Source: a bacterium (lineage in GTDB: Bacteria; Verrucomicrobiota; Kiritimatiellia; CAIVKH01). Taken from it: a stretch of 40,299 nucleotides of DNA. The notes under the pieces are model-generated. The model searched no databases and had not been told where the DNA came from. It saw nothing but the letters and a program-made list of their open reading frames with translations. Shown here piece by piece: positions 16,370 through 37,500 of this stretch; within the stretch, counting starts at the first letter, position 1, and each line of letters begins with the position of its first letter. The translations under genes and the position numbers were made by a program. The stretch spans positions 1 to 40,299 of the forward strand of contig JAZDKY010000134.1 of NCBI GenBank assembly GCA_043802525.1, written 5' to 3'.

Positions 16370-16401
16370 GATTTCGTTTCATCAAAGGGAAGGAATTGCA
16401 C

Positions 16402-17097
16402 ATGAAAACAATCAGATCAGCCATCGCGGTTCTAGCGGCATCGTCGCTGCTCATTCATCTGCCGGCGTCCGCCGCACTCGAAGCGCCGCGCGGCTCCATC
16501 GTCGAACGCAACATCGACCTTGCGGCCGAGAAGGCGTTTGACCAGTGGATGGGCAGCCTGGAAAGCGCGCCGCACGCGGACGACGTCCAGAACATCGGCA
16601 TCTTGAAGCTTGCCGGCGACACCAGGGATTTCACCTCGCTCCTGGCGGAGAAGCTGACCGCCTCCAAACGATTCCATGTCGTGATCCTCAGTGGAGGCGA
16701 CTGGAACGCGATCGAGGACGAAATGGCCCGTCAGGACGTGGATGCCGGCTTCGGGGACATCATGAACAAGGCGACGATCATGTGGACGAATGCCCGCGGC
16801 GCCTACGTCATCCCTGAGACGACCAAGGGTGCTGACGCACTCTTGCTGGGGCGGGTGCGCGATGTTGACGGGGACTGGCTCCGTGCGCGCGCCCGGATCA
16901 CGATGCATCTGGCCCGGGTCGACACGCGGACGCAGGTCGCCGGCGGCATAGCGGAAGGCGAGTCCGTCATGTCGATCAGGGACTTGGCGATCTACTTCAA
17001 GGTCGAGCTGTTGATCGGGGCTGGTTGCCTGGTTGTTGCGATGATCCTGCTGGCCCTGATCAGGGGCTTTTTCAAGGGCATGTCGAGGCCCCGATAA
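16402..17097 (+). CDS. Secreted protein with a C-terminal transmembrane anchor; hypothetical.
   Basis: ATG 16402 follows AAAGGGAAGG. Signal peptide MKTIRSAIAVLAASSLLIHLPASA. C-terminal hydrophobic helix LIGAGCLVVAMILLALI. Confidence 0.5.
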   Translation: MKTIRSAIAVLAASSLLIHLPASAALEAPRGSIVERNIDLAAEKAFDQWMGSLESAPHADDVQNIGILKLAGDTRDFTSLLAEKLTASKRFHVVILSGGDWNAIEDEMARQDVDAGFGDIMNKATIMWTNARGAYVIPETTKGADALLLGRVRDVDGDWLRARARITMHLARVDTRTQVAGGIAEGESVMSIRDLAIYFKVELLIGAGCLVVAMILLALIRGFFKGMSRPR

Positions 17098-18415: not shown

Positions 18416-21400
18416 GTGGTAGCAAAATGTTCCCAGTGCCGTGCTGAAATAGCGTCAGGATATCGATTCTGCCCATCGTGCGGCGGCTCAGTAGATACGG
18501 AACCATCCTCCCCGGCTGATCCTGCACTTCAGTCGATGGGTGATCTGCGCACGCGCCAGGACGCCCCCCGGCTCGACTCCATGGGCGACCTTCCAACTGG
18601 CGCGACCTCCGGCGCGCGCCAGTTAACGCGGGAACGTGCCGGTGATGTGCTTCGCGAACGGTACGAGTTGCTCGAAGAGCTGGGGCAGGGAGGATTTGGC
18701 TCCGTATGGAAGGCGCAGGATCGTGAGCTCGGACGCATCGTGGCCATCAAATGGCTCCATCATGTGACCGATAAGGAAGGCCGTCGTGATGAAATGGCCT
18801 TGGCCCGATTCGCGCAGGAAGCCCAGCTCATTGCGAAACTCAACCACCGGAATACGGTCGAAATCTACGACCGTTTCACTGATCAGGGCGATCCCTGCAT
18901 CGTGATGGAACACATCGAAGGCGGCAACCTTCGCCAGTATCTCAAGAGTCATGGCGGGAAGCTCAAGCTGGACGAGGCCGCGAAGATGATCCGCGGCGTG
19001 GCCCAGGGCCTCGCGTGCGCGCACAACAGCCAGTTGATTCACCGCGATATCAAGCCCGAGAATATTCTCCTCAAGCCTGAAGACGGGGAACTCGTTCCCA
19101 AGATCGTGGATTTCGGCCTTGCCCGGATGGAGAGCGAATCTGAGCTCAACACCATGGGAGGGCTTGGCACGCCTTTCTACATGCCCCCCGAGCAGCGGAG
19201 GGATGCAAAGCTGGTTGATCACCGGGCCGACATCTACGCGCTAGGGAAGACATTCTATTACATGATCACGGGCGATCTTCCCGACACCATCGATCCCGAC
19301 AAAATACCGTCCTCAGCCATCTCGGACGTCATACTCAAGTGTGTCAAACTCAGCCCGCAGGAGCGGTTTTTCAGCGCCGGCGACTTTATCGAGGCCCTCG
19401 ACGATGCCTTGGCGGGCGTCTCTCATAAAAAAGAGGCCATGCCCGCCGGAGACGCGGCCGCGCTGAATCTCTGCCCAAGCTGCGCAAAACCGAACCCTTC
19501 CGAATCCAAATTCTGCGAGAGCTGCGGGGCAGGGTTGACGCGCCAGTGCCCGGAATGCGACCGCCAGAATTCCGTTCACAAGACGTTTTGCGGAGGCTGC
19601 GGCACGGACGTGGCCGCGTTCGACAAGGTGCAGGAAGGTCTCGCCTCGGTGAAAGGTCTGTTGGCCGAGAAGAATTGGAGCCGGGCAATCGAGGAAGCGG
19701 AGGCCGTCGCGGGGATCTCGTTCAACCGAAAGAAAGGCCTGGGCTTATTGGCGGAGCTGAATGAATGCGGGGCCACCGCTCGCAACGCGGAGAAGCGTAT
19801 CGAAGAGCTCGCACACCAGATCGACAAGGCGGAGACAGACGGGGTTGCTCACGAAACTGTGCTCGAGATGATCAAGGAGTACTCGAGTCTCGAACCGCGG
19901 AGGAATTGGGAGTCCCGAGTGGCCGCGTTGCATACAGCCATCGACGACAGGGATTTTGAGGAGTGCTGCCAGAGGGCGATGGATGCGGCAGACAAAGGAC
20001 AGTTTTCGGATGCACAGGAAACGGTATTGGCTTATCTGACAACGTATCCGGATGGTCGACATGCAGACGAGGCGAAGACACTCGTCGAAACGGAACTGCC
20101 CGATCGGGAGGCGCGTTATGCCGAAAATCAGGCCTTAGCCTCTGCTGAGAAAGCCTTGGACGCTGTAGATGGTTCAAATCACCAGAAGTCCATCGATAAA
20201 ATACTCCGCGCGCTGGCCGGCTGCCAGCAATGCATTGCTCGCTATGAAGCTCGGCTTCAAGGCAATCGCCTCGGCGATGCAATCCGCAAGCTGACGGAGG
20301 CGCGCGGAGAAGTGGAAAAGGAGTTGGAGTTTCGGTCGCTGGAATCGTCCGTCAAGGACTTGATTCTCGCAAAGGATTATGTCGCTGCGTGTCTCAAGTG
20401 CAGGGAATTCCTTTCCAAGAACGATCACCATAAGTCAGAAGCCGCCACCCTCCGTGACAAAGCGCTGGAGCTGGAAGAGAACCGAAAGGCTGCCGCTGAC
20501 GCCGCTGCGCGGCGCAAGCTGCGTGTTTTGCTCTACAAGGTGGGTGCATGCGCTCTCGCCATCGCCCTGGTGATGGCGAATGTGGCCTGGCGGAACTATC
20601 GACTCGGAAGGGAATATGATCACGCCATTGATTCACGGAATCTCCAGGACGCCGAACGGCTCGCCAAGAAACGGAAGTTGAGCGCTGAAAGGCAGCTACT
20701 GCTCGATTACCTGCGCTCCTCGGACAAGGCGAAGTACGACTATGATCGACGCTTTGCTGACATCTCCGCCGCCTTGTCCGTCTACGGAGGGGACGCTTGG
20801 AATCGGATCCAGAGCAAATTGGCCGAGGCCGCGAGAGGTGATTTGCATGAGGCACCAAGGCTTTATGCTGAGGCGGCGGACGAAGCCAAGGCCGTGCAGA
20901 CACGCTACGGAAAGCTCATAACAACCAGGCAGCATTTCGAGGCTAAGTACACCGTGGACGTCGTGAGCACGCTTCAAGCCCTTGCGCCTGAAGAGGCCCA
21001 CCGACTCAGCGACCTCGTCGAATCGGCAGCGAACGAGAAGGATATTGATAGAGGGCTCGACCTTTACCGGAAGGCCGACTTGGAGCTGAATCAAGCGATC
21101 CAAATTGCCGTGAAACAGAAATCGGCGGAGGCCGACGCTTCGGCAGCTCGGAAAGCGGCAGAGTCAGCCTATGCAGATGTTGGTTCGGATAAACTGCTGA
21201 AGAACGTCACGGAGCTTCGTGAACAGGTTGTATCCCAGCTTGCGGAAGCACGGGCCATGTATGACAAGCGTGACTACGATCAGGCCGCAACGTCGTGGCA
21301 AGAATGTTCGGATCTCGTCAACCAGATATCGGATCGCATCCGCGAGATGAAAAGCAGGCGGCTCTTGTTTCAGCAGTCGCTGAAGAACTACGAAAAGGAC

Positions 21401-21565
21401 ATTCCGCGCATCCGGAAAGATATTCCCGATATGTGGAGACAATTACAAGCATTGACGAATGCAGCCGAATTGGCCACGTCGCCGGAAGTATTCATAAGCA
21501 AGTATCAGGATGCGCTTAACCAACTGGAAAGGGCTGTGGATGTCATCAGCCAGAAAGATCGATAG
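18416..21565 (+). CDS. Ser/Thr protein kinase. It has an N-terminal zinc ribbon, a Hanks kinase domain, a double zinc ribbon, a transmembrane helix and a long helical TPR-like C-terminal region.
   Basis: GTG start 8 nt after GGAGGAG. LGQGGFGSVWKA, HRDIKPENILL and DFGLA kinase motifs. CPSCAK..CESCG..CPECDR..CGGCG. Transmembrane segment VLLYKVGACALAIALVMANVAW. Confidence 0.9.
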   Translation: MVAKCSQCRAEIASGYRFCPSCGGSVDTEPSSPADPALQSMGDLRTRQDAPRLDSMGDLPTGATSGARQLTRERAGDVLRERYELLEELGQGGFGSVWKAQDRELGRIVAIKWLHHVTDKEGRRDEMALARFAQEAQLIAKLNHRNTVEIYDRFTDQGDPCIVMEHIEGGNLRQYLKSHGGKLKLDEAAKMIRGVAQGLACAHNSQLIHRDIKPENILLKPEDGELVPKIVDFGLARMESESELNTMGGLGTPFYMPPEQRRDAKLVDHRADIYALGKTFYYMITGDLPDTIDPDKIPSSAISDVILKCVKLSPQERFFSAGDFIEALDDALAGVSHKKEAMPAGDAAALNLCPSCAKPNPSESKFCESCGAGLTRQCPECDRQNSVHKTFCGGCGTDVAAFDKVQEGLASVKGLLAEKNWSRAIEEAEAVAGISFNRKKGLGLLAELNECGATARNAEKRIEELAHQIDKAETDGVAHETVLEMIKEYSSLEPRRNWESRVAALHTAIDDRDFEECCQRAMDAADKGQFSDAQETVLAYLTTYPDGRHADEAKTLVETELPDREARYAENQALASAEKALDAVDGSNHQKSIDKILRALAGCQQCIARYEARLQGNRLGDAIRKLTEARGEVEKELEFRSLESSVKDLILAKDYVAACLKCREFLSKNDHHKSEAATLRDKALELEENRKAAADAAARRKLRVLLYKVGACALAIALVMANVAWRNYRLGREYDHAIDSRNLQDAERLAKKRKLSAERQLLLDYLRSSDKAKYDYDRRFADISAALSVYGGDAWNRIQSKLAEAARGDLHEAPRLYAEAADEAKAVQTRYGKLITTRQHFEAKYTVDVVSTLQALAPEEAHRLSDLVESAANEKDIDRGLDLYRKADLELNQAIQIAVKQKSAEADASAARKAAESAYADVGSDKLLKNVTELREQVVSQLAEARAMYDKRDYDQAATSWQECSDLVNQISDRIREMKSRRLLFQQSLKNYEKDIPRIRKDIPDMWRQLQALTNAAELATSPEVFISKYQDALNQLERAVDVISQKDR

Positions 21566-23096
21566 CGCTACGCAAGTGTCGGCCAAGGTCAGCGCCTGTC
21601 TTGTGCTCTTCATCAGCTCAACGCTGTGCGGCTGCAGCACAATCAAGAACACGCGGCAGGTGGTTGAGAAGATAGATGGGCAACCTATCGCGGGAACGGA
21701 ACGGCGATTCGTCGATGTAGTTAAGATGACCAACGTGTGGGATTCAGAGAAACCGGAGTTTCAACGATTGACTGTTACCGCCAAAGGCAGCAAGGAGTGG
21801 CAGGTAGAGCAGTTTGAGGAAACGTGGGTAGTACAAGATAAAGAGCGTAGCTACGCCGTGGTCGGGAGAGGCGAGGGCTACAACCTCGGTTACGACTTAT
21901 TCGCGGATCCCGTTTTCGCCTGTGTCGGCTTGCTTGTATACCCGTTCGCATTTCTTGCGCCGCGCACGGACAATCCAGACGCGTCGTTTGGAAATATAAA
22001 CCGGACTGTAAGTCAGTGGCTCTTCGCTGCATTGCCTGGTATCAGTAATTGCGCCAAGCCTATTCGCACATCGTCGCGATCGTTGAAGAGCCGTGATGAA
22101 CTGCCTCCTGCGGGCCGGGCCACGTCGGTCGACGCGTGGATTGAATTGTTGGTTTACGATGGCGGCAACGTCCGGGTAATGGAGCAAGCGTTAGATGCAG
22201 ACAAGCCGCTCCTGTTGCCGGTCTGTGATTTCGCCCTGAATTCACCCGGTCACCCGGAGGTGACTTTCGTCGTGACTTCCAAGACCGCAATGGTTCGCGG
22301 CCCCAATAGACTGACGATCCGTCTCAACGAAACGGAATTGGTCAGGCGAAAAGCGGCCGCACAGAAGGCGAACCCTGACGAGCGTCGCCAAGCGTATGCC
22401 TTCCATCCGGGTCATGATCTCGATGACCACGAAGGCGGGAACGGAGATGGGCTTCTCCGGGCCGGAGAGACCGTACTTCTTGTCATGACGGTGGATAATT
22501 CGGGCAGTGGTCCAGGTTACGGCGTGGAACTCGCCGCTTCGGTCAAGGGTGGTGACGTTTCGGTGGGAAGCCCGCAGCCTGTTACGCAGTTGAAGGGGAA
22601 ATCTTCGGCGAGGATCGGCGTGCCTCTCACGGTGCCCCTGAAATCGCCGGACGGAGTAGCTCGTATCGAAGTCGTCGCCGCAGATGCCGCAGGCGTTACG
22701 TCATCACCGGTTGCGGTGGAGATTCCGTACTCCCACCGCCCATTGCCGGAGCTGCAACTCGGCAGCGTGGACGTCCAGCGCGCCCCGGACGGTGCGGACG
22801 GCGATTTTGGTGTCATCATTAAAGTGCGAAACCGCGGCGATGGCGATTCCGAGCGCACCAAGCTGGCCATTGCGGGTGAACCCAGCGCCGGCCGTGTGGT
22901 ACGGGGGCAAATTGAATTTGGAACCCTTGCCCCGCACTCCCAGACGCAAGCGGTCCTGCGCCTCAATTCCACAGGGGCTACGTCTGATGTCACGACGATC
23001 CAAGTCCGCATCGTTGAGCGCCTCGGCGTTGGCTCAGACGAAAAGAGCCTCGATATACCCATTCCAGCGAGTGGCAAGCGGACCTCGCGCAAGTAG
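21540..23096 (+). CDS. Lipoprotein (lipobox TLCGCS); hypothetical. It overlaps the upstream kinase 3' end by 26 nt.
   Basis: MSSARK...LVLFISSTLCGCS. Overlap suggests translational coupling with the kinase. Confidence 0.55.
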   Translation: MSSARKIDSATQVSAKVSACLVLFISSTLCGCSTIKNTRQVVEKIDGQPIAGTERRFVDVVKMTNVWDSEKPEFQRLTVTAKGSKEWQVEQFEETWVVQDKERSYAVVGRGEGYNLGYDLFADPVFACVGLLVYPFAFLAPRTDNPDASFGNINRTVSQWLFAALPGISNCAKPIRTSSRSLKSRDELPPAGRATSVDAWIELLVYDGGNVRVMEQALDADKPLLLPVCDFALNSPGHPEVTFVVTSKTAMVRGPNRLTIRLNETELVRRKAAAQKANPDERRQAYAFHPGHDLDDHEGGNGDGLLRAGETVLLVMTVDNSGSGPGYGVELAASVKGGDVSVGSPQPVTQLKGKSSARIGVPLTVPLKSPDGVARIEVVAADAAGVTSSPVAVEIPYSHRPLPELQLGSVDVQRAPDGADGDFGVIIKVRNRGDGDSERTKLAIAGEPSAGRVVRGQIEFGTLAPHSQTQAVLRLNSTGATSDVTTIQVRIVERLGVGSDEKSLDIPIPASGKRTSRK

Positions 23097-23116
23097 GCAC
23101 ATGTTACGGTCGCAGT

Positions 23117-25678
23117 ATGGACGAAAGCGTGAACAACAGGGAGACGGTTCGGGCAGAATCCGCCGGCCGACACGAGTTTGCGCTTGAAGCAGGAGACATT
23201 CTCGATCAGTACCGGATTCTCCGCCCGCTCGGCGCGGGCGGGATGGGCGAGGTGTACCTCGCTGAGAACGTCCACAACCACAAACGCTTCGCCCTGAAAG
23301 TCCTCCCCGCCGCGCTCGCGCGGGACCCCCAGTTCGTTGGCCGGTTCAAGGTCGAGTCGCGCGTCATGATGGACCTCGACCACCCGGGCATCGTGCGCGT
23401 CCACCACATTGGCGAAGCTCGAGGGCTCTATTACCTGACCATGGACTTCGTGGAGGGTCCCGACGGCGCGCCCTTTGATCTCGAAGACCTGCTGCGCGAG
23501 CAGGGAGGCAGGATCAAGGACGAAAAGGTCGTTCGGGAACTCGCTCTCCAAATATGTGACGCGCTGGACTATGCGCATCATTTCCGCGGTGAGGGCATTG
23601 TCCATCGTGACCTAAAGCCGGCGAACATCCTGCTGCCCGGAGGACAGAAGACAGAGGACGGAAGACAGATCACGGTCAGAATCAGCGATTTCGGCCTGGC
23701 GAAGGTGGTGGGCGATGCCTATCTGAAGAGCATCATCGAGCGGTCGGTCAGTCTTTCGATCGGCGGTGAAGTCTCTATGGGGGACGAAAAGACCGGAGAC
23801 GGAAGGCCGAAACATCAAAAGACCAGCACGCGGTCCATCCTCGGTACCTATGACTACATGAGTCCCGAGCAGAAGCTTGGCCTGCCCGTCGATGCCCGCA
23901 GCGATATCTACGCGCTGGGCATGATGCTGTACAAGATGCTGACAGGCCGGAAAGCCGAAGGCGCTTACCGGCGGCCCTCGCAACTCGGGTGCGGCAGGGC
24001 GTGGGACTCTGTAGTTGAGCGTTGCATCCAGCAGGCACCCGAAGACCGCTATGCATCGGTGGCGGTACTGCAGAGGGATATTGAAAAAACCACACGGACG
24101 ACACACCGCAGGGCAATCCTGTCACTTATTGGCATAGCTGCCGGTGTACTTCTGGCAGCAGGCTTCCATTTCTTCTTGAACACCTCTAGGTCAAACTTGA
24201 AGGAGTCTGTGACTCAACCTGAACATGGAGTTTCCGATGTATCACTTGGTAGCGCTGCGGATTTGAAGCCCCGTTCTGTCATCGCATCGGGTATTGTTTA
24301 CACTCAGCTTCCAGACGGATTTGTCATTGTTTCGGGCGGCTTGTACATCTCCACAGAGCCTTCCGGCGCGACGGTATCTGTGGACGGGTATGAAATTACA
24401 AATAGCCCCGCAACATTTCGCGACATGGCAGCCGGTTCGCAGATTGTTACGGTCAAACTGGCCGACTACGAGTCGCAAACATTCGACATCGATGTTCCTG
24501 AAGACGATTTTGCGAAGACCAATGTTGTCCTTGTCAGAAAAAAGGGCCTCATCGAAGTCACGAGCCGACCCGCAGGTGCCCAAGTCATGCAGGGATCCCG
24601 CGTGCTGGGTGAAACCCCGATGAGCGCTCGCCTGGAAGTGGGCCCACAAATTTTGACGATTCGCAAATATGGCTTCCGAGATGCTGACGTCCGCGCCGAC
24701 GTCACAGCTGACCTCAAGACGATCGTGTCCGAAGTGACTCTGACGTCAGAGCTCGGCGCTATCCGGATCACGGCACGACCCGCCTCGGGCGAGGGTAAGT
24801 ATTTTGATATTCTGGATAATCGAATCGAGCTTGGTTCCGCAGATCGCAAAATAGAGAACTCGTCCTTCCCGTGTGTGGTGACCGGACTTGCTGTCGGGGC
24901 TATTCAAGTCGCGGTCGCTGTAGACGGATACAAAACAGCAACAAATATGGTGACGGTCGCCGGTGGTCGCACGACGGATACCGAATTCGTACTCGCGCGG
25001 CTTGGTCCCGTTGACGGCGCCGACTGGTCCGTGCCGGGAAGTACGAACTTAACAAACGCTCAAGAGATGGCATATCAGGCTCAGACGAACGGGACAAATC
25101 CATCCTTGGCATCCTCTGTGCAGCTCGTTGCCGATGGGAAACTCCTATTGCGTCAAAACAAGCTTGCCGAGGCGGAGAAGATGTTCCAATCCGTCCTTGG
25201 CCAATCGCCCAACATGCTTGACGCGCGCATCGGCTTGGCGGCCTGCCGGTACAATGCGGGCGATCTGGACCAGGCGCAGCGACTCGTCGGTGACGTACTG
25301 GCCGTAGAAGCGAAGAACGCACAGGCGCTCGGCCTCATGGGTATCATTGCGTGGCGCGAGGGCCGGTACCGCGATGCCGTAGAGATACTCAGCGAGGCTG
25401 TCCGCGCCGACCCGACCGATGCGCAACTGCACAGCTACTTGGGCGTGGCGTTTCAGGCGCGCAAGCGGTACGCCGAAGCCACCCAAGAACTGCGGACTGC
25501 TGTAACGCTGGATCCCAACAACGCGGAGGCCCAGTACAATCTTTCCGTGGTCCTTGCTACGGCCCGCTCGCCTTTGTTGCAGGAAGCCAAGGCACACTAC
25601 GACCTCGCGCTGCAATTGGGGTACCCCCGGGACGACGCGATGGACAAGCTTTTATCAAGGATTCCGCAAGCACATTGA
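23117..25678 (+). CDS. Ser/Thr protein kinase with a transmembrane helix, extracytoplasmic PEGA-like domains and C-terminal TPR repeats.
   Basis: LGAGGMGEVYLA, HRDLKPANILL and DFGLAK. Transmembrane segment AILSLIGIAAGVLLAAGF. PEGA-like GAQVMQGSRVLGETPM..L..G. TPR-like repeats (AEAQYNLSVVLA...). Confidence 0.9.
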   Translation: MDESVNNRETVRAESAGRHEFALEAGDILDQYRILRPLGAGGMGEVYLAENVHNHKRFALKVLPAALARDPQFVGRFKVESRVMMDLDHPGIVRVHHIGEARGLYYLTMDFVEGPDGAPFDLEDLLREQGGRIKDEKVVRELALQICDALDYAHHFRGEGIVHRDLKPANILLPGGQKTEDGRQITVRISDFGLAKVVGDAYLKSIIERSVSLSIGGEVSMGDEKTGDGRPKHQKTSTRSILGTYDYMSPEQKLGLPVDARSDIYALGMMLYKMLTGRKAEGAYRRPSQLGCGRAWDSVVERCIQQAPEDRYASVAVLQRDIEKTTRTTHRRAILSLIGIAAGVLLAAGFHFFLNTSRSNLKESVTQPEHGVSDVSLGSAADLKPRSVIASGIVYTQLPDGFVIVSGGLYISTEPSGATVSVDGYEITNSPATFRDMAAGSQIVTVKLADYESQTFDIDVPEDDFAKTNVVLVRKKGLIEVTSRPAGAQVMQGSRVLGETPMSARLEVGPQILTIRKYGFRDADVRADVTADLKTIVSEVTLTSELGAIRITARPASGEGKYFDILDNRIELGSADRKIENSSFPCVVTGLAVGAIQVAVAVDGYKTATNMVTVAGGRTTDTEFVLARLGPVDGADWSVPGSTNLTNAQEMAYQAQTNGTNPSLASSVQLVADGKLLLRQNKLAEAEKMFQSVLGQSPNMLDARIGLAACRYNAGDLDQAQRLVGDVLAVEAKNAQALGLMGIIAWREGRYRDAVEILSEAVRADPTDAQLHSYLGVAFQARKRYAEATQELRTAVTLDPNNAEAQYNLSVVLATARSPLLQEAKAHYDLALQLGYPRDDAMDKLLSRIPQAH

Positions 25679-25745: not shown

Positions 25746-26615
25746 ATGGAGCAGTGCTGCATATGCGGGAAGGATCTGCCGGGCAAGTATTCGCAGCAGA
25801 ACTGTTGCGAGAAGCCCGAATGTAAAAAGCTCTTCTGCGACCTGCACTGGAACCGGAGCAACCGGCTCTGCCGCGAGCACGGGTACCGGGAATTGGCGGA
25901 ACACGGAGGCAAAGATATGACGACGCCCGACCAGGAACCTGCGGCTTCGAAGATCGATCCGAAGCGCGCCAAGAAACTCATGGATGCCACGGTGTCCTTC
26001 GTCAAGAAACTCGGCGCGGGCGCGGCGGATCTTCTCGGCAAGCTCAAGAAGGACAAGTCCCCGCAGGCCATGCTGGCGACGATGGAGCAGTCCATCGACG
26101 CGAACCAGAAACGGCGCGAGGACGTTTCCGGTCGCGTGGAGCGACTTCACAACGAGATTGTCGAGAAGAAGAAAGCCTATGCGACGGCGGCACCGGCCCG
26201 GAAACGTATTCTCGAGGCTGAACTTCGGAGCAAGCTCTCGGAATACAAGGCTTCCGAGCGCGAGCTGAGCGTCCTGCTGGAAAACGAGCGCGTACTTTCG
26301 CAGGTCAAAGGCCGGCTCTACGAGGTCGTGTCGTACGGCATGGCCGGCGTGACGGAAGCACAAATAGACGACGTGATCGACGAGATCGAGGAGGCGGTCG
26401 CCGAAGCCGAAGGCCGCGCGGACGCCTCGCGCGACCTTGAGAAGGCCGGGCGCCGTCGGGAGCGTGAGTCCGACAAGGACGACTTTTTGTCGCAACTCGG
26501 CGAGTTCGGTGGGGACGCGGAACCGTCCGGATTGGACAAGGAGCTTGCCGGTTTTGACGAGCCGGAGCCTGCCGCCGAAAAACCGAAACGGAACAAGGAA
26601 GAACCCGACATCTGA
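25746..26615 (+). CDS. Cys-rich zinc-binding N-terminus fused to a Snf7/ESCRT-III-like helical core with an acidic tail.
   Basis: The segment EKKKAYATAAPARKRILEAELRSKLSEYKASERELSVLLENERVLSQVKGRLYEVVSYGMAGVTEAQIDDVIDEIEE follows the Snf7 pattern (basic hairpin, then acidic C-terminus with an IDDV.D.IEE-like block), by analogy to yeast Snf7/CHMP4. Pattern-based, not searched. Confidence 0.5.
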   Translation: MEQCCICGKDLPGKYSQQNCCEKPECKKLFCDLHWNRSNRLCREHGYRELAEHGGKDMTTPDQEPAASKIDPKRAKKLMDATVSFVKKLGAGAADLLGKLKKDKSPQAMLATMEQSIDANQKRREDVSGRVERLHNEIVEKKKAYATAAPARKRILEAELRSKLSEYKASERELSVLLENERVLSQVKGRLYEVVSYGMAGVTEAQIDDVIDEIEEAVAEAEGRADASRDLEKAGRRRERESDKDDFLSQLGEFGGDAEPSGLDKELAGFDEPEPAAEKPKRNKEEPDI

Positions 26616-26631
26616 TTGCCAGGAGGTCACC

Positions 26632-27261
26632 ATGAGTTTCATGTTCAAGTCCAAGAAGGAGCGGGCCAAAGAGGCGCGCCGTGATCAACGCCAGGCGTTC
26701 CGTCAGGCTGAAAACGCGATCGATGACGTGAAGGAACGTATCAAGCAGATGGACAAGGATGCGAAGAAGCAGTGGGACCAGGCCCGGGAAGCCATGAAAG
26801 CGGGCCAGAAATCCGTCGCGCAGCGCCTGCTCATCAGCTACCGCGCATCGCAGGTGCTCATCACCAAACTCGAGCAGAAGCGTTGGGTGTTTGAGCAGTT
26901 CTTCACCAAGCTGCAGGCCGCGAATTCCGACCAGCAGTTCGCCGACGCGCTGTCCGGCATCAACAAGGTGATCAAGATCGACCCCGAACGTGTCGCCGAT
27001 GTCTTCGATGAAGCCCAAGACCTGCTCGGCGAGCAGCTCGACTCCGATCGCTTCTGGGAGAAGATGTACACCAAGGAAACCGAGGGCGCGACGGCGTCGC
27101 TCGAAGACCATATCCCGTCGCTTGACGAACTCGGCAAGCAGCTTGAGCAGGAAGCCGCGGTGGAGATCGGAGGGGGCGCGACCGAGCGGGTGAACACCGA
27201 GCTGGACTCCCGCATCAAGGCGGGGCAGGAGCGGGTGAAGAAGCTGTTGGACGGCAAGTAG
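26632..27261 (+). CDS. Snf7/ESCRT-III-like protein (CHMP2-like charge asymmetry) with a C-terminal MIM1-like motif.
   Basis: Perfect AGGAGG RBS. Basic N-terminus (KKERAKEARRDQRQ). Core MKAGQKSVAQRLLISYRASQVLITKLEQKRW...KLQAANSDQQFADALSGINKV parallels CHMP2A MAKQGQMDAVRIMAKDLVRTRRYVRKF...KIQTLKSNNSMAQAMKGVTKAM. Acidic tail. Terminal ..QERVKKLLDGK resembles the MIM1 consensus (E/D)xxLxxRLxxL(K/R). Confidence 0.55.
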   Translation: MSFMFKSKKERAKEARRDQRQAFRQAENAIDDVKERIKQMDKDAKKQWDQAREAMKAGQKSVAQRLLISYRASQVLITKLEQKRWVFEQFFTKLQAANSDQQFADALSGINKVIKIDPERVADVFDEAQDLLGEQLDSDRFWEKMYTKETEGATASLEDHIPSLDELGKQLEQEAAVEIGGGATERVNTELDSRIKAGQERVKKLLDGK

Positions 27262-27318: not shown

Positions 27319-27477
27319 CATGGCATCCCCAAGACCGGTGGATTTGCTCAAGACGATCCTCAATTCCCTCATTCTCGTCGCCGGCGGCGTGGGGAGCGTG
27401 GTCAATCTCCTGCGAGGCAATGGCCTGCCTGCGGCGCTGCTCGTGCTCGTGGCGGCGGTCGTTAGGAGGTGCCCATA
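27319..27477 (+). CDS. Possible 52-aa small membrane protein (below the ORF-track threshold).
   Basis: ATG lies 9 nt after GGAGGA. Hydrophobic LLKTILNSLILVAGGVGSVVNLL...LLVLVAAVV. Hand-translated. Confidence 0.25.
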
Positions 27478-27642
27478 AAAAACATTTACAAAGAGGCTCT
27501 TGCAAAGCTCCAGAAAACAACGGTCGCGACGGAGCGCGACCCTCCAAAGATGAAGGGAATGGCCCATTTTTCAAGCTGGAGGGACGCGCTTCGTCGCGTC
27601 CATAGGAGTTTTGCAAGACGCTCACATGTAAATGTTGTTTTT
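27476..27642 (+). promoter_or_regulatory. Structured leader upstream of DGR-target kinase 1. A roughly 35-bp imperfect inverted repeat (aaaaacatttacaaagaggctcttgcaaagctcc / ggagttttgcaagacgctcacatgtaaatgttgttttt) encloses two perfect GC hairpins (gtcgcg..cgcgac; ggacgcg-cttcgt-cgcgtcc).
   Basis: Reverse-complement relationships were read directly. It is an AT-richer patch. Confidence 0.35.
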
Positions 27643-27702: not shown

Positions 27703-30609
27703 ATGGACAAGTCCTTGGGCAGCCGGGATACCACGCCGCCGGATGATCCATCCGGCAGCGATGGCATCAAGAGCGTCGGCGACTGGCAGACGCTGCGGGC
27801 GATGGCCGGGCGGAAGCGGTTCAAGGCCGGGGAGATGATCCTTGGCCGGTACAAGGTCACCGGCGAACTGGGCCAGGGCGGGATGGGTGTCGTCTACCGC
27901 TGCTTCGACGAGGTCGGCGGGATCGACGTGGCGCTCAAGGCGCTGCCGCCCGAACTCTCGCACGATTCTTCGGAAATGGCGGAGGTACGCGAGAACTTCC
28001 AGCTCGTTTCGCGGCTGGTCCACACCAACATCGCCCAGATCCGCACCCTCGATAAGGACCCCGCCACGGGCGACTACTACCTCGTCATGGAGTGCGTGGA
28101 TGGGATCAACCTGCGCGACTACCGGAAGAAGCACGGCGGGAAACTGACGCTCGAACAGGTGATGCGGATCGCCCCGCAGGTGGCCGGGGCGCTCGACTAT
28201 GCGCACGGCCAGAAAATCATCCACAGGGACATCAAGCCCGCCAACGTGATGATCCGTGCCGACGGCACGGTGAAAGTGCTGGACTTCGGACTGGCCGCGC
28301 AGCTTCACACGTCCATGTCGCGGGTCAGCAAGGCCCATTACGGGACCAGCGGCACGGGCCCGTACATGGCGCCGGAGCAGTGGGAGGGCGACTACCAGGA
28401 CGCGGCGACGGATCAGTACGCGTTCGGTGCCTTGGTCTATGAGCTGCTGGCAGGGCGTTGTCCTTTCGAAAGCCACGACTCGGGCGTCCTGCGGCATGCC
28501 GTCCTGCACGGGAAGGCCAAACCGATCGACGGCGTGCCCGCACGGGAAATGGATGCGATCTTGCGCGCGCTGGCGAAGACGCGGGAGGATCGGTTTGCGG
28601 ATTGCGCGGAGTTTGTGGAGGCGCTGGGCGGGGGGAAGATTGAACCACGGAGGACACGGAGTAACGCGGAGGGGAAGAGGAGTGGGGTTCGTGGTTTGCG
28701 GTTGGGGGTTGGGGTGGTTCTGCTCGTGGCCCTTGGCTACGGGTCCCTTGTGTCCCTCAAGTCGCTTTCCGCGCGCCGCGCGGAGGAGCGCACCGCACAG
28801 GACGCCGCGGCGAAGCAGAACGACGCGTCAAAACAGCAGATTGCCCAACTCCAACAGGCCGTCGAGCAGGCACTGACGTCTGGCAATTTGAAGGCCGCGG
28901 GAGAGAGCCTGTCTGACTTGGAGGAACTGGGCGTGCAGATACCGGCCGTGCGTGATCTGAGAGCCCGATACGAAGCAGCCGCGGGCGCACAAGAAGTGAG
29001 GAAGCGGCAGGCAGAAGCGTCGCTGGAATACGAGGCGGCACAGAAACTCGAGCCTGGGCAGGGGTTGGAGAAGAAGCTGAAGGAACTGGAACTGGTCTGG
29101 CGAGAGGCGGAACAGGCGAAGAAGGACGAGGCGTGGGGGCCGGCGCTGACGTCGTACGACCATCTCCTGGGGAAGTGCCGGGAGCTTGGGGAATGGGATG
29201 CGGCGCGCAAAGGCGCGAAGGCGCAGGGCCGGAAGGCGGAAGGCGCAAGACAGTCGGCGTCGGGCAGGAACGCGGAGCGGGATGCCTTGGCGCTATGGAA
29301 TGGCGCGGCCTCGGCGGCCTCGGCCGCAGCGACGGCCTATGAGGCGGGTGATTTTGCGGGCGCTTCCAAGGGTTGGAAGGATGCTGAAGTGAAGTTCCAA
29401 TCTTCGGAGCAGAGGGCTGTCGCGGTGCAGGCATACGGGAAGGCGAAGGCGGACTACGATGCCGCGGCGTCGCGGGCGGACCGGGAACTGCTGGGGCAGT
29501 ACGCCGCAGGCAAGTGGAAGGAAGCCCAGCAGCAGGCCAGGACGGCGGAGCAGTCCGGGGACACGCCGGACGAGGGGCGCCGGGCGTACGAGGCCGCGCT
29601 GGCGGCCTTGGACGCGGCGGTCAAGGAGGCGGAGGAGAAGTCGATCCCGATCCTGAAGGTCACGGCGAAGGCCGACGGAGCAGATGTCAAAGCTACGGTC
29701 AGCGACGGCAAGAGCACGTGGATGACGCCGGTGGAGCTGAAACTGGCGAAGAACCAGTCCTATACGTTTCAAGTAACCTATGCGGGCGGCGGCAAGCGCT
29801 GGAAAGCGGTGCGCGACACCCGAACATCCGATTGGGTGGGCGTGAAGCAGTGGGCGGTGGCGCTGGAGGCGTCGCGAGGGCCCGAGCCGGGCCGGCCGTG
29901 GACGGTGCCGGAGCTGGGGATGGAGTTCGTGCCGGTGGAGGCGGGCAGCTTCCAGATGGGATCGGAAGACGGCCATAACGACGAGAAACCCGTACACGGC
30001 GTGAGGATCACGAAGCCGTTCTGGATGGGGAAATACGAGGTGACGCAGGAGGAGTACCGGAAGATCAGCGGTCAGGCGCCTTCCTACTTCAAGGGCGACC
30101 GGCTGCCTGTTGAGACGGTCAACTGGAACGAAGCCGTTGCGTTCTGCCGCAAACTGACCGAACAGGAGCAGGCGGCGGGGCGGTTGCCGGAAGGGTATGA
30201 ATACCGGTTGCCGACGGAGGCGGAATGGGAGTACGCGGCGCGCGGCGGGACCTTGAGTCGAGGGACGGGGTATGCGGGCGGCGACGATATTGACCGGGTG
30301 GCGTGGTATACGTCGAATAGCGGGAGTACGACGCATGAGGCGGGCACGAAAGCAGCCAATGAGTTGGGCCTCTACGACATGAGCGGGAACGTGTGGGAAT
30401 GGTGCCTGGACGCATATCAGGACAGCTATACGGGCGCTCCGGCGGATGGTTCGGAGCGTACTGGTTCCGGGGCCGTTTCGCGGGTTCTCCGTGGCGGGTC
30501 GTGGCCCGACGATGCGACGTACTGTCGCGTCGCCTACCGCCGCAGGAACGACCCGACGGACTCCTACTACTGCATTGGCTTTCGTGTTGTGTTGGGGGCG
30601 GTCCGTTGA
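27703..30609 (+). CDS. Transmembrane Ser/Thr protein kinase with a C-terminal extracytoplasmic FGE-sulfatase/C-type-lectin-fold domain carrying the DGR variable region. DGR target 1.
   Basis: LGQGGMGVVYRC, HRDIKPANVMI and DFGLAA. Transmembrane segment GVGVVLLVALGYGSLVSL. FGE domain (RLPTEAEWEYAARGG...GNVWEWCLDAY...RVLRGGSW...GFRVVL). VR1 lies at the 3' end. Confidence 0.9.
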   Translation: MDKSLGSRDTTPPDDPSGSDGIKSVGDWQTLRAMAGRKRFKAGEMILGRYKVTGELGQGGMGVVYRCFDEVGGIDVALKALPPELSHDSSEMAEVRENFQLVSRLVHTNIAQIRTLDKDPATGDYYLVMECVDGINLRDYRKKHGGKLTLEQVMRIAPQVAGALDYAHGQKIIHRDIKPANVMIRADGTVKVLDFGLAAQLHTSMSRVSKAHYGTSGTGPYMAPEQWEGDYQDAATDQYAFGALVYELLAGRCPFESHDSGVLRHAVLHGKAKPIDGVPAREMDAILRALAKTREDRFADCAEFVEALGGGKIEPRRTRSNAEGKRSGVRGLRLGVGVVLLVALGYGSLVSLKSLSARRAEERTAQDAAAKQNDASKQQIAQLQQAVEQALTSGNLKAAGESLSDLEELGVQIPAVRDLRARYEAAAGAQEVRKRQAEASLEYEAAQKLEPGQGLEKKLKELELVWREAEQAKKDEAWGPALTSYDHLLGKCRELGEWDAARKGAKAQGRKAEGARQSASGRNAERDALALWNGAASAASAAATAYEAGDFAGASKGWKDAEVKFQSSEQRAVAVQAYGKAKADYDAAASRADRELLGQYAAGKWKEAQQQARTAEQSGDTPDEGRRAYEAALAALDAAVKEAEEKSIPILKVTAKADGADVKATVSDGKSTWMTPVELKLAKNQSYTFQVTYAGGGKRWKAVRDTRTSDWVGVKQWAVALEASRGPEPGRPWTVPELGMEFVPVEAGSFQMGSEDGHNDEKPVHGVRITKPFWMGKYEVTQEEYRKISGQAPSYFKGDRLPVETVNWNEAVAFCRKLTEQEQAAGRLPEGYEYRLPTEAEWEYAARGGTLSRGTGYAGGDDIDRVAWYTSNSGSTTHEAGTKAANELGLYDMSGNVWEWCLDAYQDSYTGAPADGSERTGSGAVSRVLRGGSWPDDATYCRVAYRRRNDPTDSYYCIGFRVVLGAVR
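30470..30609 (+). repeat. DGR variable repeat VR1 (3' end of kinase-FGE gene 1).
   Basis: 140-nt alignment to TR1 shows 12 mismatches, all at TR adenines (examples: ggAAcAac to ggCCcGac; ccAaccgcAAc to ccTaccgcCGc; AAcAAcAAcAtt to TAcTAcTGcAtt). Confidence 0.9.
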
Positions 30610-30737: not shown

Positions 30738-30877
30738 GGGCCGTTTCGCGGGTTCTCCGTGGCGGGTCGTGGAACAACGATGCGACGAACTGTCGCGTCG
30801 CCAACCGCAACAGGAACGACCCGACGAACTCCAACAACAACATTGGCTTTCGTGTTGTGTTGGGGGCGGTCCGTTGA
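30738..30877 (+). repeat. DGR template repeat TR1 (orphan). It is AAC-rich and translates in target frame as [42 protein letters not shown].
   Basis: Identical to VR1 except at 12 adenine positions. It is intergenic. The upstream gggggaccatgaca resembles the avd 3' end (gggggccgggacatgaca) found before TR2. Confidence 0.9.
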
Positions 30878-31045
30878 AGAATCGGACAGCCAGATACCGT
30901 GCGCTTCCCGCGAGAGCGGGTCGCCCGGTCCGTGCAAACCCATTCCAGTTTTGTCCTCCTGATCCCGCCGGCGAGCGGGGCGAAGACGCGGCGCGGGGCT
31001 GGGGCTGGTACCCTGAGGATCTCGAAGGGGAAAGCCCCGGCCCCG
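30878..31045 (+). ncRNA. Conserved structured RNA element 3' of TR1 (DGR spacer-like region). It includes the shared motif ccagatac and the conserved block aagacgcggcgcggggcYggggcYggtaccctgagg..tcgaRggggaaRgccccggc.
   Basis: The same roughly 60-nt block recurs downstream of TR2 (37607..37665). A C/U difference in the 5' strand preserves pairing (G-C versus G.U) with gccccggcccc. Confidence 0.55.
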
Positions 31046-35867: not shown

Positions 35868-35926
35868 ATGGTAGTTGTTCTGTGTCCTGAGCTTCTGGGT
35901 TCTGGTTTCTGAGGTTCTGAAAACTA

Positions 35927-35941
35927 ACCCCGCGAAGCGGG
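35927..35941 (+). promoter_or_regulatory. GC hairpin with a GAA triloop (ccccgc-gaa-gcgggg), 60 nt downstream of VR2 and just upstream of the RT start. DGR target-recognition-type hairpin.
   Basis: Read from the sequence. The segment between VR and hairpin (ctgagcttctggg.ttctg.gtt.ctga) is conserved with the VR1-downstream region. Confidence 0.5.
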
Positions 35942-35952
35942 GCCGAAAATGT

Positions 35953-37361: not shown

Positions 37362-37500
37362 GTTCGCGGCGCGTTGTGCGGGGCGGGTCGTTCAACAATC
37401 AACCCGGTAACGTACGATGCGCGTATCGCGACAGGAACGATCCATCGAATCCGAACAGCAACAATGGCTTTCGGGTTGGTCTGGGTGTTTCCCGCTGAGG
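37362..37500 (+). repeat. DGR template repeat TR2. It is AAC-rich and translates in target frame as RVVRGGSFNNQPGNVRCAYRDRNDPSNPNSNNGFRVGLGVSR.
   Basis: Identical to VR2 except at 16 adenines. It starts 8 nt after the avd stop. Confidence 0.9.

What the first reader, a model, noticed from the sequence alone, without database searches (positions are those of the whole stretch)
25746..27261. Tandem Snf7/ESCRT-III-like proteins and a Vps4-like MIT-AAA ATPase bracketing the DGR locus
Two adjacent ORFs show the ESCRT-III architecture: a basic N-terminal helical hairpin, an acidic C-terminus, and runs that parallel CHMP2A/Snf7 nearly residue-by-residue in pattern. The second ends in a MIM1-like ..ERVKKLL motif. 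About 10 kb downstream on the same strand is a Vps4-like AAA ATPase (37719..38870). It has an N-terminal MIT-like three-helix region, the meiotic-clade motifs (SKWHGESE; LVLGATNKPWEIDEA..R..FD..IYVGLPD) and a Vps4-type C-terminal helix (QLLQRYEQFKQARFG). A bona fide Snf7 + Vps4 pairing is rare in bacteria, where ESCRT-III is usually represented by PspA/Vipp1. Here the pair brackets the receptor-kinase/DGR block and begins with a zinc-ribbon fusion. This suggests a membrane-remodelling or signalling module regulated by the neighbouring kinases.
Basis: inference. Interest (0 to 1): 0.8.

Follow-up and report, generated by a model that had tools for sequence, protein, structure and literature searches.

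The report
Bacterial Snf7 protein with partner ATPase
This window carries a true Snf7-type (ESCRT-III) membrane-remodelling protein and a dedicated AAA ATPase that sit side by side in related PVC-group bacteria. Reviews say bacteria lack such a pairing, but the ATPase is not demonstrably a Vps4, and the first small protein is not demonstrably an ESCRT-III.

Summary
All the described ORFs exist.

- **ORF B (26632-27261)** is a real Snf7-family protein. It scores above the Pfam cut-off, all 20 orthologues tested match Snf7, and its family profile hits solved yeast Snf7.
- **ORF A (25746-26615)** is a zinc-ribbon plus long helical-hairpin protein. It has ESCRT-III-like charge polarity but no detectable ESCRT-III homology.
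- **The ATPase C (37719-38870)** has a Vps4-like layout: a three-helix N-domain, a disordered linker, one AAA domain and a C-terminal helix. By sequence and fold it is closest to Cdc48 D2. No MIT signal was found, and Vps4_C scores below threshold.

The decisive result is synteny. In 23 of 28 related genomes (Lentisphaerae, Kiritimatiellia, Verrucomicrobiota) the C orthologue lies within 5 kb of B, and in 8 of them within 30 nt. The kinase/DGR block here is therefore an insertion into a conserved Snf7-AAA operon.

The wider conserved cluster adds an SPFH-zinc-ribbon protein, an FHA protein and receptor Ser/Thr kinases. This mirrors archaeal ESCRT systems.

I read it as a phospho-regulated ESCRT-III/AAA membrane-remodelling module specific to PVC bacteria: a new variant of a known kind.

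The parts
25746..26615 (+). Protein A: N-terminal zinc ribbon, linker, long alpha-helical hairpin, a further long helix and an acidic tail with a conserved ELAGF motif. Conserved partner of B.
   Evidence: ORF. Family of more than 120 homologues. AF2 model at pLDDT 80.9 with hairpin H106-147/H150-196. Orthologues next to B in 19 of 28 loci. No ESCRT-III homology detected.
26632..27261 (+). Protein B: Snf7/ESCRT-III family protein. Basic N-half, acidic C-half, N-terminal MxxxFKSKK motif and a conserved C-terminal helix ...ERVKKLLDGK.
   Evidence: Pfam Snf7 29.7 bits against the 27.3 cut-off. All 20 orthologues match Snf7. The family profile hits solved yeast Snf7, E 5.5e-4, colinear over residues 21-180. 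NCBI names it 'Snf7 family protein'. GGAGG ribosome-binding site.
27320..27478 (+). 52-aa remnant of a conserved small two-TM protein that accompanies the operon elsewhere (L1_131/L2_129).
   Evidence: tblastn, 44-56% identity over 27-34 aa, local E 1e-8.
27703..30609 (+). Receptor Ser/Thr kinase: cytoplasmic kinase domain, one TM segment, and an external FGE-sulfatase/C-type-lectin-fold domain whose 3' end is DGR variable region VR2 (30470-30617).
   Evidence: Pfam. TM at residues 334-352. VR/TR pair.
30738..30885 (+). Second DGR template repeat (TR2), cognate to VR2.
   Evidence: 91% identical to 30470-30617. 13 of 14 mismatches fall at TR adenines.
33066..35864 (+). Second receptor Ser/Thr kinase (kinase, TM, PEGA, FGE domain). 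Its 3' end is DGR variable region VR1 (35729-35867).
   Evidence: Pfam. TM. VR/TR pair.
35875..37014 (+). DGR reverse transcriptase.
   Evidence: Pfam RVT_1, E 2.5e-18.
36962..37354 (+). DGR accessory protein bAvd.
   Evidence: Pfam bAvd, 49.8 bits.
37363..37501 (+). DGR template repeat TR1, cognate to VR1.
   Evidence: 88% identical to 35729-35867. 16 of 16 mismatches fall at TR adenines.
37719..38870 (+). [quoted passage not shown] Conserved operon partner of B.
   Evidence: Pfam AAA and AAA_lid_3. AF2 model. Orthologues at 52-79% identity next to B in 23 of 28 genomes. Closest to Cdc48 D2.
12203..13831 (+). SPFH/Band-7 protein with an N-terminal double zinc ribbon. Conserved upstream member of the cluster.
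   Evidence: Pfam. Orthologues within 10 kb of B in 17 of 28 loci.
13864..15405 (+). Zinc-ribbon and FHA-domain protein (phospho-threonine reader). Conserved cluster member.
   Evidence: Pfam FHA, E 1.3e-9. Orthologues in 13 of 28 loci.
15431..17097 (+). Two envelope proteins conserved in the cluster. One is a lipoprotein (15431-16369). The other is a secreted protein with a C-terminal TM anchor (probable start about 16402, end 17097).
   Evidence: Signal peptide/lipobox and TM predictions. Synteny.
18416..25678 (+). Two further receptor Ser/Thr kinases (18416-21565 with zinc ribbons; 23117-25678 with PEGA and TPR) flanking a lipoprotein (21510-23096), immediately upstream of A.
   Evidence: Pfam. 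TM predictions.

Best explanation
The window holds a conserved gene cluster specific to the PVC superphylum. It encodes a bacterial ESCRT-III-type machine.

**Proposed roles**
- B is a Snf7-family subunit. I expect it to polymerise on the inner face of the cytoplasmic membrane through its basic N-half and its N-terminal hydrophobic/basic motif.
- C is its dedicated classical AAA+ unfoldase. I expect it to work as a Vps4 analogue: its N-terminal three-helix domain binds the conserved C-terminal helix of B (and possibly the ELAGF tail of A), and ATP hydrolysis extracts subunits to remodel or recycle the polymer.
- A, a zinc-ribbon plus helical-hairpin protein, is a co-polymer subunit or a nucleating adaptor.
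- The SPFH-zinc-ribbon protein provides a membrane scaffold.
- The FHA protein couples the machine to phospho-threonine marks made by the single-pass receptor kinases. Here two of these kinases have DGR-hypervariable external ligand-binding domains.

**Shown**
- B belongs to the Snf7 family.
- The B-C-A gene linkage is conserved.
- The domain layout and kinase topology are as described.
- The DGR has active-looking VR/TR pairs.
- The DGR/kinase block is an insertion into an operon that is otherwise contiguous.

**Inferred**
- B polymerises.
- C acts on B.
- Kinase-to-FHA signalling controls the machine.
- The physiological output (membrane repair, vesiculation or envelope remodelling).
For: **B is Snf7.**
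- Pfam PF03357 scores 29.7 bits against the 27.3 cut-off.
- All 20 orthologues match Snf7, and none matches PspA_IM30 at E<=0.01.
- The family profile hits yeast SNF7 8wb6 at E 5.5e-4, colinear over residues 21-180, and Heimdall ESCRT-IIIB.
- Charge polarity is +10/-11.

**B-C linkage.**
- The C orthologue lies within 5 kb on the same strand in 23 of 28 species-level genomes, and within 30 nt in 8 of them. Three of the five exceptions have truncated flanks of at most 2.5 kb.
- The linkage holds while B identity falls to 45%.
- It also holds in loci with no DGR (L007, L010, L025, L027, L028, L031).

**C architecture.** AF2 gives a three-helix bundle at residues 2-69 (pLDDT 87-97), a disordered linker at 75-101, an AAA domain, a lid and a C-terminal helix at 362-376. 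The N-domain and C-helix are conserved across orthologues.

**A linkage.** A orthologues sit beside B in 19 of 28 loci.

**Accessory genes.** SPFH-zinc-ribbon, FHA and kinases with PEGA or FGE domains recur in the loci. They parallel the archaeal ESCRT loci described in PMC10936438.

**Kinase topology.** The kinase domain is cytoplasmic and the FGE domain is external.

**Not a known defence system.** The cluster has no PADLOC match beyond generic AAA similarity.
Against: - No structure model was made for B, and no polymerisation or binding data exist.
- C is not specifically Vps4-like. It is closest to Cdc48/VAT D2 (208 bits against 168 for yeast Vps4) and has the Cdc48-type RTGRFD motif.
- C shows no MIT signal by Pfam, PDB profile search or hhalign.
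- Vps4_C is sub-threshold.
- A has no detectable ESCRT-III homology.
- The MIM-like reading of the B tail is untested.
- Some loci carry integrase fragments or a ParE toxin nearby. This would fit a mobile or defence context.
- In this window two accessory genes of the operon have decayed.
Confidence: 0.6

Rival explanations
1. The cluster is a biological-conflict (anti-phage or anti-competitor) system. DGR-diversified receptor kinases sense an invader or its products at the cell surface. They signal through the FHA protein to an ESCRT-III/AAA effector, which either repairs the membrane or executes membrane-directed abortive infection.
For: - DGR-hypervariable sensor domains on two kinases.
- FGE-domain kinases in 12 of 28 loci.
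- An integrase-like fragment, a ParE toxin and an integrase near some loci.
- Variable accessory gene content and gene decay.
- DGR-diversified FGE-type domains in conflict systems are described in PMC7159879 (listed).
Against: - No protein of the cluster matches a PADLOC defence model, apart from generic AAA similarity of about 100 bits.
- B and C are unusually conserved (B 45-78%, C 52-79% identity) across classes, with stable synteny. That looks more like a housekeeping function than a patchy defence island.
- An RT lies near B in only 1 of the 28 genome loci, plus L002/L003 (one arrangement seen on two contigs) and this window.
Confidence: 0.2
2. B and C are neighbours but do not form an ESCRT-III/Vps4-like pair. 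C is a general Cdc48-like unfoldase for protein quality control or for another substrate (for example the kinases or A). B acts alone as a PspA-like membrane stabiliser.
For: - The ATPase domain of C is closest to Cdc48/VAT D2 and about equally similar to PAN and FtsH.
- No MIT signal was found.
- Bacterial PspA/Vipp1 work without an unfoldase (PMC7619361).
Against: - Direct adjacency and co-orientation of B and C is kept across divergent genomes.
- The C N-domain and the B C-terminal helix are both conserved.
- Makarova et al. use exactly this neighbourhood criterion to define Vps4-like ATPases that lack MIT.
Confidence: 0.12
3. The AAA ATPase belongs to the DGR cassette (it follows bAvd and TR1 directly here) and has nothing to do with the Snf7-like gene 10 kb upstream.
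For: In this window C starts 218 nt after TR1. In L002/L003 it also follows a DGR RT.
Against: In most related genomes C is adjacent to B with no RT or Avd in the locus (L007, L010, L013, L016, L017, L020, L025, L027, L028, L031). In L009 the RT lies on the other side of B.
Confidence: 0.03

Closest known systems
Archaeal ESCRT-III/Vps4 systems outside Asgard (CdvB/CdvC and the euryarchaeal 'Main', Halo_FHA, Meth_adaptin and Halo_adaptin loci; Makarova et al. 2024, PMC10936438)
   Same: - A Snf7-family gene lies next to a single-domain classical AAA ATPase with a helical N-domain and a C-terminal helix.
- Accessory genes of the same kinds: an SPFH protein with coiled coil and zinc ribbon, an FHA protein, membrane Ser/Thr kinases with Ig/PEGA repeats, and zinc-ribbon coiled-coil proteins.
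- One archaeal clade (Halo_adaptin) also has a Vps4-like ATPase with no identifiable MIT.
   Different: - This cluster is bacterial (PVC superphylum).
- The ATPase has no detectable MIT, has a Cdc48-type RxGRFD motif, and scores higher against Cdc48 D2 than against Vps4 or CdvC.
- No winged-helix (ESCRT-II-like) or adaptin-like protein was identified.
- Kinases with DGR-diversified FGE domains are present.
- Periplasmic and lipoprotein components are present.
Bacterial PspA/Vipp1(IM30) systems (ESCRT-III superfamily)
   Same: Same superfamily of membrane-binding helical-hairpin polymers. An association with SPFH/Band-7 proteins is known for PspA (PMC7619361, PMC10936438).
   Different: B matches Pfam Snf7, not PspA_IM30. 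No PspB/C/F or Lia partners are present. B has a dedicated classical AAA unfoldase, which the 2025 review says bacteria appear to lack.
Bacterial Vps4-like AAA ATPase operons with a TPR-6TM protein, and PspA with a double-AAA ATPase and a membrane-anchored divergent Snf7 (Ravi et al. 2024, PMC11237479)
   Same: Classical AAA ATPases linked to ESCRT-III-superfamily or membrane proteins in bacteria, including Verrucomicrobia and Planctomycetes.
   Different: In the first type Snf7 is replaced by a TPR-6TM protein; here a soluble Snf7 is retained. In the second type the ATPase has two AAA domains and the Snf7 is membrane-anchored. Neither description includes the SPFH, FHA, zinc-ribbon-hairpin or kinase set.
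Eukaryotic ESCRT-III (Snf7/CHMP4 class) with Vps4
   Same: B aligns colinearly with yeast Snf7. It shows the basic/acidic polarity, an N-terminal hydrophobic-basic motif and a conserved C-terminal amphipathic helix. It is partnered with an ATPase that has a three-helix N-domain, a linker, one AAA domain and a C-terminal helix.
   Different: No MIT or MIM could be shown. The ATPase model shows no beta-domain. No ESCRT-0/I/II components were found. The ATPase is not in the Vps4 clade by similarity.
Zinc-ribbon plus coiled-coil hairpin proteins HP0958/CT398/MSMEG_4306
   Same: These are the best Foldseek matches of A (E 0.08-0.3). They combine an antiparallel coiled-coil hairpin with a zinc ribbon.
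   Different: The domain order is reversed (zinc ribbon is C-terminal in those proteins). The matches are not significant, and there is no genomic or functional parallel.

Membership tests
Snf7/ESCRT-III (protein B) | Match to Pfam PF03357 above the gathering score | tested here: met
   29.7 bits against 27.3, E 6.2e-7. All 20 orthologues match at E<=0.01, best 4e-8.
Snf7/ESCRT-III (protein B) | Colinear similarity to a solved ESCRT-III core | tested here: met
   The family profile hits yeast SNF7 8wb6_A at E 5.5e-4 over residues 21-180 of both. It also hits 5fd9/5fd7 at E about 6e-3 and Heimdall ESCRT-IIIB at E 0.08.
Snf7/ESCRT-III (protein B) | Basic N-terminal half and acidic C-terminal half | tested here: met
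   +10 (pI 10.2) against -11 (pI 4.5).
Snf7/ESCRT-III (protein B) | Alpha1-alpha2 hairpin plus alpha3-alpha5 fold | not tested
Snf7/ESCRT-III (protein B) | C-terminal MIT-interacting motif (MIM1 or MIM2) | tested here: inconclusive
   A nearly invariant C-terminal LDxRIxSGQERVKKLLDGK is present. It contains an LxxR[IL] core but does not fit the full MIM1 consensus as I recall it. No binding test was possible.
Snf7/ESCRT-III (protein B) | Membrane-bound polymer formation | not testable with these tools
   Requires biochemistry or electron microscopy.
PspA/Vipp1 (protein B) | Match to Pfam PspA_IM30 or to solved PspA/Vipp1 | tested here: not met
   No PspA_IM30 match at E<=0.01 in 20 members. 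No PspA or Vipp1 chain among the PDB profile hits at E<=10.
Snf7/ESCRT-III (protein A) | Sequence homology to ESCRT-III or PspA | tested here: not met
   hhalign of A3 against A1 gives probability 3.8%. The PDB profile search found nothing relevant. Pfam Snf7 matches 2 of 25 members at E<=1, best 0.065.
Snf7/ESCRT-III (protein A) | ESCRT-III fold | tested here: inconclusive
Vps4/CdvC (protein C) | Single classical-clade AAA domain with lid | tested here: met
   Pfam AAA at 1.4e-37 and AAA_lid_3 at 2.5e-9. AF2 model.
Vps4/CdvC (protein C) | N-terminal MIT domain | tested here: inconclusive
   By sequence the feature is not met. There is no Pfam MIT match in C or in 17 N-domains. The N-domain profile finds no MIT chain in the PDB. 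hhalign against Vps4 MIT domains gives probability 0.5%. By structure, AF2 gives a confident three-helix bundle of MIT-like size (H2-20, H24-44, H48-69). It could not be superposed on an MIT domain separately.
Vps4/CdvC (protein C) | Vps4_C C-terminal helix (PF09336) | tested here: inconclusive
   14.8 bits for the whole protein and 18.9 bits for the isolated segment, against a 21.3 cut-off. 8 of 21 orthologues match at E<=0.1. The helix at 362-376 is modelled. VAT/Cdc48 D2 aligns over the same segment. Some fused relatives pass the cut-off.
Vps4/CdvC (protein C) | Closer to Vps4 than to other classical AAA families, with the Vps4-type arginine-finger region | tested here: not met
   phmmer gives 208 bits to VAT D2 and 168 bits to yeast Vps4, whose recalled sequence was verified against 5uie. 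NCBIfam gives CDC48 235, CdvC 203, PAN 199 and FtsH 193 bits. The top 50 Foldseek hits are all p97/Cdc48. C has an invariant FRTGRFD, where yeast Vps4 has IRR--RFE with a 2-residue gap.
Vps4/CdvC (protein C) | Encoded next to an ESCRT-III gene (the neighbourhood criterion of Makarova et al. 2024) | tested here: met
   23 of 28 genomes within 5 kb on the same strand, and 8 within 30 nt. The criterion is quoted.
Diversity-generating retroelement (intervening block) | RT, Avd and a TR/VR pair with adenine-specific differences at the 3' end of a target gene | tested here: met
   RVT_1 and bAvd. Two VR/TR pairs with 16/16 and 13/14 mismatches at TR adenines, located in the FGE domains of two kinases.
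Known anti-phage defence systems (PADLOC) | Match of cluster proteins to defence-system models | tested here: not met
   A, B, SPFH, FHA and three others have no match. C shows only generic AAA similarity to IetA (101 bits) and TRIP13.

The most novel reading that the evidence does not exclude
PVC bacteria (Lentisphaerae, Kiritimatiellia and some Verrucomicrobiota) carry a vertically inherited, complete ESCRT-type machine. It consists of a Snf7 polymer, a helical-hairpin/zinc-ribbon co-subunit, an SPFH scaffold, an FHA adaptor and a dedicated AAA disassembly ATPase. It is evolutionarily related to the euryarchaeal ESCRT systems and is triggered by hypervariable surface receptor kinases. That would be ligand-triggered membrane budding, uptake or scission in bacteria. 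[quoted passage not shown]
Probability: 0.2. Interest if true: 0.9.

Novelty: new variant of a known kind. Interest (0 to 1): 0.7.

Why it matters
**What the literature says.** Recent reviews and surveys state that ESCRT components other than PspA/Vipp1 are not found in bacteria. They also state that a Vps4-like ATPase regulating ESCRT-III dynamics appears absent there (PMC10936438 abstract; PMC7619361).

**What this cluster would add.** It is a conserved bacterial operon that pairs a true Snf7-family protein with a dedicated classical AAA unfoldase, and it carries the same kinds of accessories (SPFH, FHA, membrane kinases) as archaeal ESCRT loci. It would give a bacterial model for ATP-driven ESCRT-III remodelling.

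**Questions it bears on.**
- Whether Vps4-type regulation arose once from Cdc48 or was recruited more than once.
- The long debate about membrane complexity in PVC bacteria.
- The link to DGR-hypervariable receptor kinases suggests a signalling input to membrane remodelling that has no described counterpart.

**Caveat.** The proteins are already in public databases, and B is named 'Snf7 family protein'. The novelty lies in the system-level association. I found no paper describing it in the searched library.

Tried and rejected
1. **Single-sequence PDB searches** of A and B gave only chance coiled-coil hits.
3. **MIT domain in C.** Pfam on the isolated N-terminus and on 17 orthologous N-domains, a PDB profile search, and hhalign against yeast and human Vps4 MIT domains were all negative. 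The human MIT sequences were recalled from memory; only the yeast one was verified.
4. **Whole-library profile search with the C family.** Multi-AAA proteins with summed scores dominated the result, so it did not reveal the nearest single-domain relatives. A few fused relatives carry Vps4_C above threshold.
5. **The afdb50 fold library** was unavailable.
6. **C as a DGR accessory** was rejected by synteny.
7. **Known defence system** was rejected by PADLOC.
8. **Top PDB hits to p97.** These are not by themselves evidence against Vps4, because two-domain proteins sum their scores and yeast Vps4 shows the same pattern. I therefore compared single domains directly.
9. **No proper phylogeny of C** was built, for lack of labelled reference sequences offline.
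Full report
**What is in the sequence**

The interval 25746-27261 holds two co-oriented ORFs.
- ORF A runs 25746-26615 (289 aa).
- ORF B is listed from a TTG at 26437, but its real start is the ATG at 26632. That ATG has a GGAGG ribosome-binding site 6 nt upstream and matches the N-terminus of every homologue. B is therefore 209 aa.
- The AAA ATPase C is at 37719-38870 (383 aa).

The window is a public MAG contig. NCBI names B 'Snf7 family protein', names C 'ATP-binding protein', and calls A a hypothetical protein from Met58, which leaves out the zinc ribbon.

**Protein B is a true Snf7-family protein**
- It scores 29.7 bits on Pfam Snf7, against a gathering score of 27.3 (E 6.2e-7).
- It belongs to a tight family of more than 230 proteins. 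The 120 listed hits are at least 61% identical to it.
- All 20 sampled members match Snf7, and none matches PspA_IM30 at E<=0.01.
- A profile of the family finds solved yeast Snf7 (8wb6, E 5.5e-4, colinear over residues 21-180 of both). It also finds the Snf7 core crystal structures and Heimdallarchaeal ESCRT-IIIB, and no PspA or Vipp1.
- Its N-half is basic (+10) and its C-half is acidic (-11).
- The family conserves an N-terminal M-x-x-L-F-K-S-K basic motif and a nearly invariant C-terminal LDxRIxSGQERVKKLLDGK.
- Whether that tail is a MIM could not be tested.

**Protein A is not demonstrably ESCRT-III**

A has a conserved Cys/His zinc ribbon (present in 17 of 25 sampled homologues), a variable linker, a helical region and an acidic tail with an ELAGF motif.

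AF2 (pLDDT 80.9) gives a zinc ribbon, two short helices, a 42+47-residue hairpin at pLDDT above 94, a 49-residue helix and a short helix. That layout and the charge polarity (+8, then -16) are compatible with an ESCRT-III or PspA-like subunit. Every homology test failed, however:
- hhalign against the B family gave probability 3.8%.
- The PDB profile search found nothing relevant.
- Pfam Snf7 matched 2 of 25 members at E<=1.
- Foldseek found no hit at E<=0.001. Its best matches were the zinc-ribbon/coiled-coil proteins CT398, MSMEG_4306 and HP0958.

**The ATPase C has a Vps4-like layout but no Vps4-clade signature**

AF2 (pLDDT 79.5) shows:
- a confident three-helix bundle at residues 2-69;
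- a disordered linker at 75-101;
- a classical AAA domain;
- a four-helix lid with no beta-domain insert;
- a C-terminal helix at 362-376.

Orthologues conserve the N-domain and the C-terminal IPSSVTxxLLKQYExFRxQRFG.

The ATPase domain is nonetheless closest to Cdc48 D2:
- NCBIfam gives CDC48 235 bits, CdvC 203, PAN 199 and FtsH 193.
- All of the top 50 Foldseek hits are p97/Cdc48 chains.
- In a like-for-like single-domain comparison, C scores 208 bits to VAT D2 and 168 bits to yeast Vps4. The yeast Vps4 sequence was verified against PDB 5uie.
- C has an invariant FRTGRFD where yeast Vps4 has IRR--RFE.
- No MIT signal was found by Pfam, a PDB profile search or hhalign.
- Vps4_C stays below threshold, at 14.8-18.9 bits against 21.3. 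8 of 21 orthologues match at E<=0.1.

C is therefore a Vps4 analogue by architecture. It is not a shown member of the Vps4 clade.

**Synteny shows that B and C belong together**

A scan of one genome per species returned 28 loci. All are MAGs labelled Lentisphaerae, Victivallales, Kiritimatiellia or Verrucomicrobiota.
- The C orthologue (52-79% identity) lies within 5 kb of B on the same strand in 23 of the 28. In 8 of them it lies within 30 nt.
- Of the five exceptions, three have truncated flanks of at most 2.5 kb and the other two carry kinase genes beside B. The present window, with a 10.5-kb gap, would also have been scored as an exception.
- A orthologues, with or without the zinc ribbon, accompany B in 19 of the 28 loci.

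The Snf7-AAA pair is thus a conserved operon, and the kinase/DGR block is an insertion into it. An independent, divergent DGR (29-39% identity) sits at the same position in L002/L003, which carry the same arrangement. Kinase arrays precede C in L032. Between B and the first kinase, this window keeps remnants of two accessory genes that are intact elsewhere.

**The wider cluster**

Several genes recur with B:
- an SPFH/Band-7 protein with a double zinc ribbon (17 of 28 loci);
- a zinc-ribbon/FHA protein (13 of 28);
- a lipoprotein and a secreted membrane-anchored protein;
- receptor Ser/Thr kinases with FGE domains (12 of 28).

The kinases are single-pass. The kinase domain is cytoplasmic, and the PEGA and FGE domains are outside. 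Here two kinases are DGR targets, with two VR/TR pairs in which 16/16 and 13/14 differences fall at TR adenines. No cluster protein matches a PADLOC defence model beyond generic AAA similarity.

**Comparison with the literature**

Makarova et al. 2024 describe euryarchaeal ESCRT loci that contain Vps4 and ESCRT-III together with FHA proteins, membrane kinases with Ig/PEGA repeats, and SPFH-coiled-coil-zinc-ribbon proteins. One of their clades has a Vps4-like ATPase with no identifiable MIT. They accept neighbourhood with ESCRT genes as a criterion for Vps4, and they state that ESCRT homologues are not identifiable in bacteria.

A 2025 review says a Vps4-like ATPase appears absent in bacteria.

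Ravi et al. 2024 note scattered bacterial Snf7 homologues. They describe Vps4-like ATPases in bacteria paired with a TPR-6TM protein instead of Snf7, and PspA with a double-AAA ATPase.

I found no description of the PVC cluster reported here, or of its DGR-kinase association.

**Interpretation**

The best reading is a PVC-specific ESCRT-III/AAA membrane-remodelling module. B is the polymer. C is its recycling unfoldase, recruited through its three-helix N-domain. A is a partner or adaptor. SPFH and FHA link the machine to the membrane and to phospho-signals from receptor kinases.
- **Shown:** the gene linkage, the family assignment of B and the domain layouts.
- **Inferred:** the mechanism and the physiological role.

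A conflict-system reading, with hypervariable sensors driving a membrane effector, remains a serious rival.

Noticed in passing
window 30470-30885 and 35729-37501: The DGR has two VR/TR pairs but only one RT. VR1 35729-35867 pairs with TR1 37363-37501, and VR2 30470-30617 pairs with TR2 30738-30885. Each VR lies at the 3' end of a kinase FGE domain, and the differences fall almost only at TR adenines (16/16 and 13/14).
   Followed up: yes
window 30975-31048 and 37599-37672: A 74-nt element, 85% identical between its two copies, follows each template repeat by about 90-100 nt. It may be the structured part of the DGR RNA. I did not fold it or compare it with Rfam.
   Followed up: no
window 31254-31553 versus 33066-33365: This 300-nt stretch is 96% identical to the 5' end of the second FGE kinase gene. 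It is a truncated duplicate, probably a pseudogene, lying between the two kinase genes (ORFs 31182-32238).
   Followed up: partly
window 27320-27478 and 27589-27699: These are remnants of two accessory genes that are intact next to the Snf7-AAA operon in other genomes: a small two-TM protein (L1_131/L2_129) and a zinc-ribbon protein (L1_159/L2_149). The second match is weak: only the last 36 residues align, and the stop codon follows within one residue of where the intact protein ends.
   Followed up: partly
window 25746-25917: The public annotation starts protein A at Met58 (232 aa). It omits an N-terminal Cys/His zinc ribbon that full-length homologues conserve and that AF2 models at pLDDT above 90.
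   Followed up: yes
alignment A2 (C orthologues P0122, P0125, P0143, P0179): Several orthologues of the ATPase have Walker B hhhhDD instead of hhhhDE (LFLDDVDG against LFLDEVDG in the window). This could slow ATP hydrolysis in those lineages.
   Followed up: no
L001/L004 8979-9836 and about 13.7 kb; L032 11927-13105: An integrase-like fragment lies just upstream of the Snf7 gene in L001/L004. In L004's arrangement, as listed by the gene table, a ParE toxin gene lies just downstream of the ATPase. A phage-type integrase lies downstream of the ATPase in L032. This hints that part of the cluster can sit in a mobile or island context.
   Followed up: no
window 40026-40160: A tandem repeat of a 19-nt unit (CCCTCCCAAGGCGGGCAGG), 7.1 copies at 98% match, lies near the end of the contig. 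It produces repetitive ORFs in several frames.
   Followed up: no
window 11200-12204 (- strand): This minus-strand ORF of 334 aa contains a region homologous to the 127-aa membrane protein that sits between A and B in L002 (30% identity over 115 aa, E 3e-24). It may be another cluster component, encoded divergently here.
   Followed up: no
proteins P0371, P0375, P0381, P0393, P0433: These relatives of C carry the same N-domain and AAA domain, followed by a second AAA domain (659-1013 aa). Two of them pass the Pfam Vps4_C threshold. They are either tandem-fused variants of this ATPase family or gene-fusion artefacts.
   Followed up: partly
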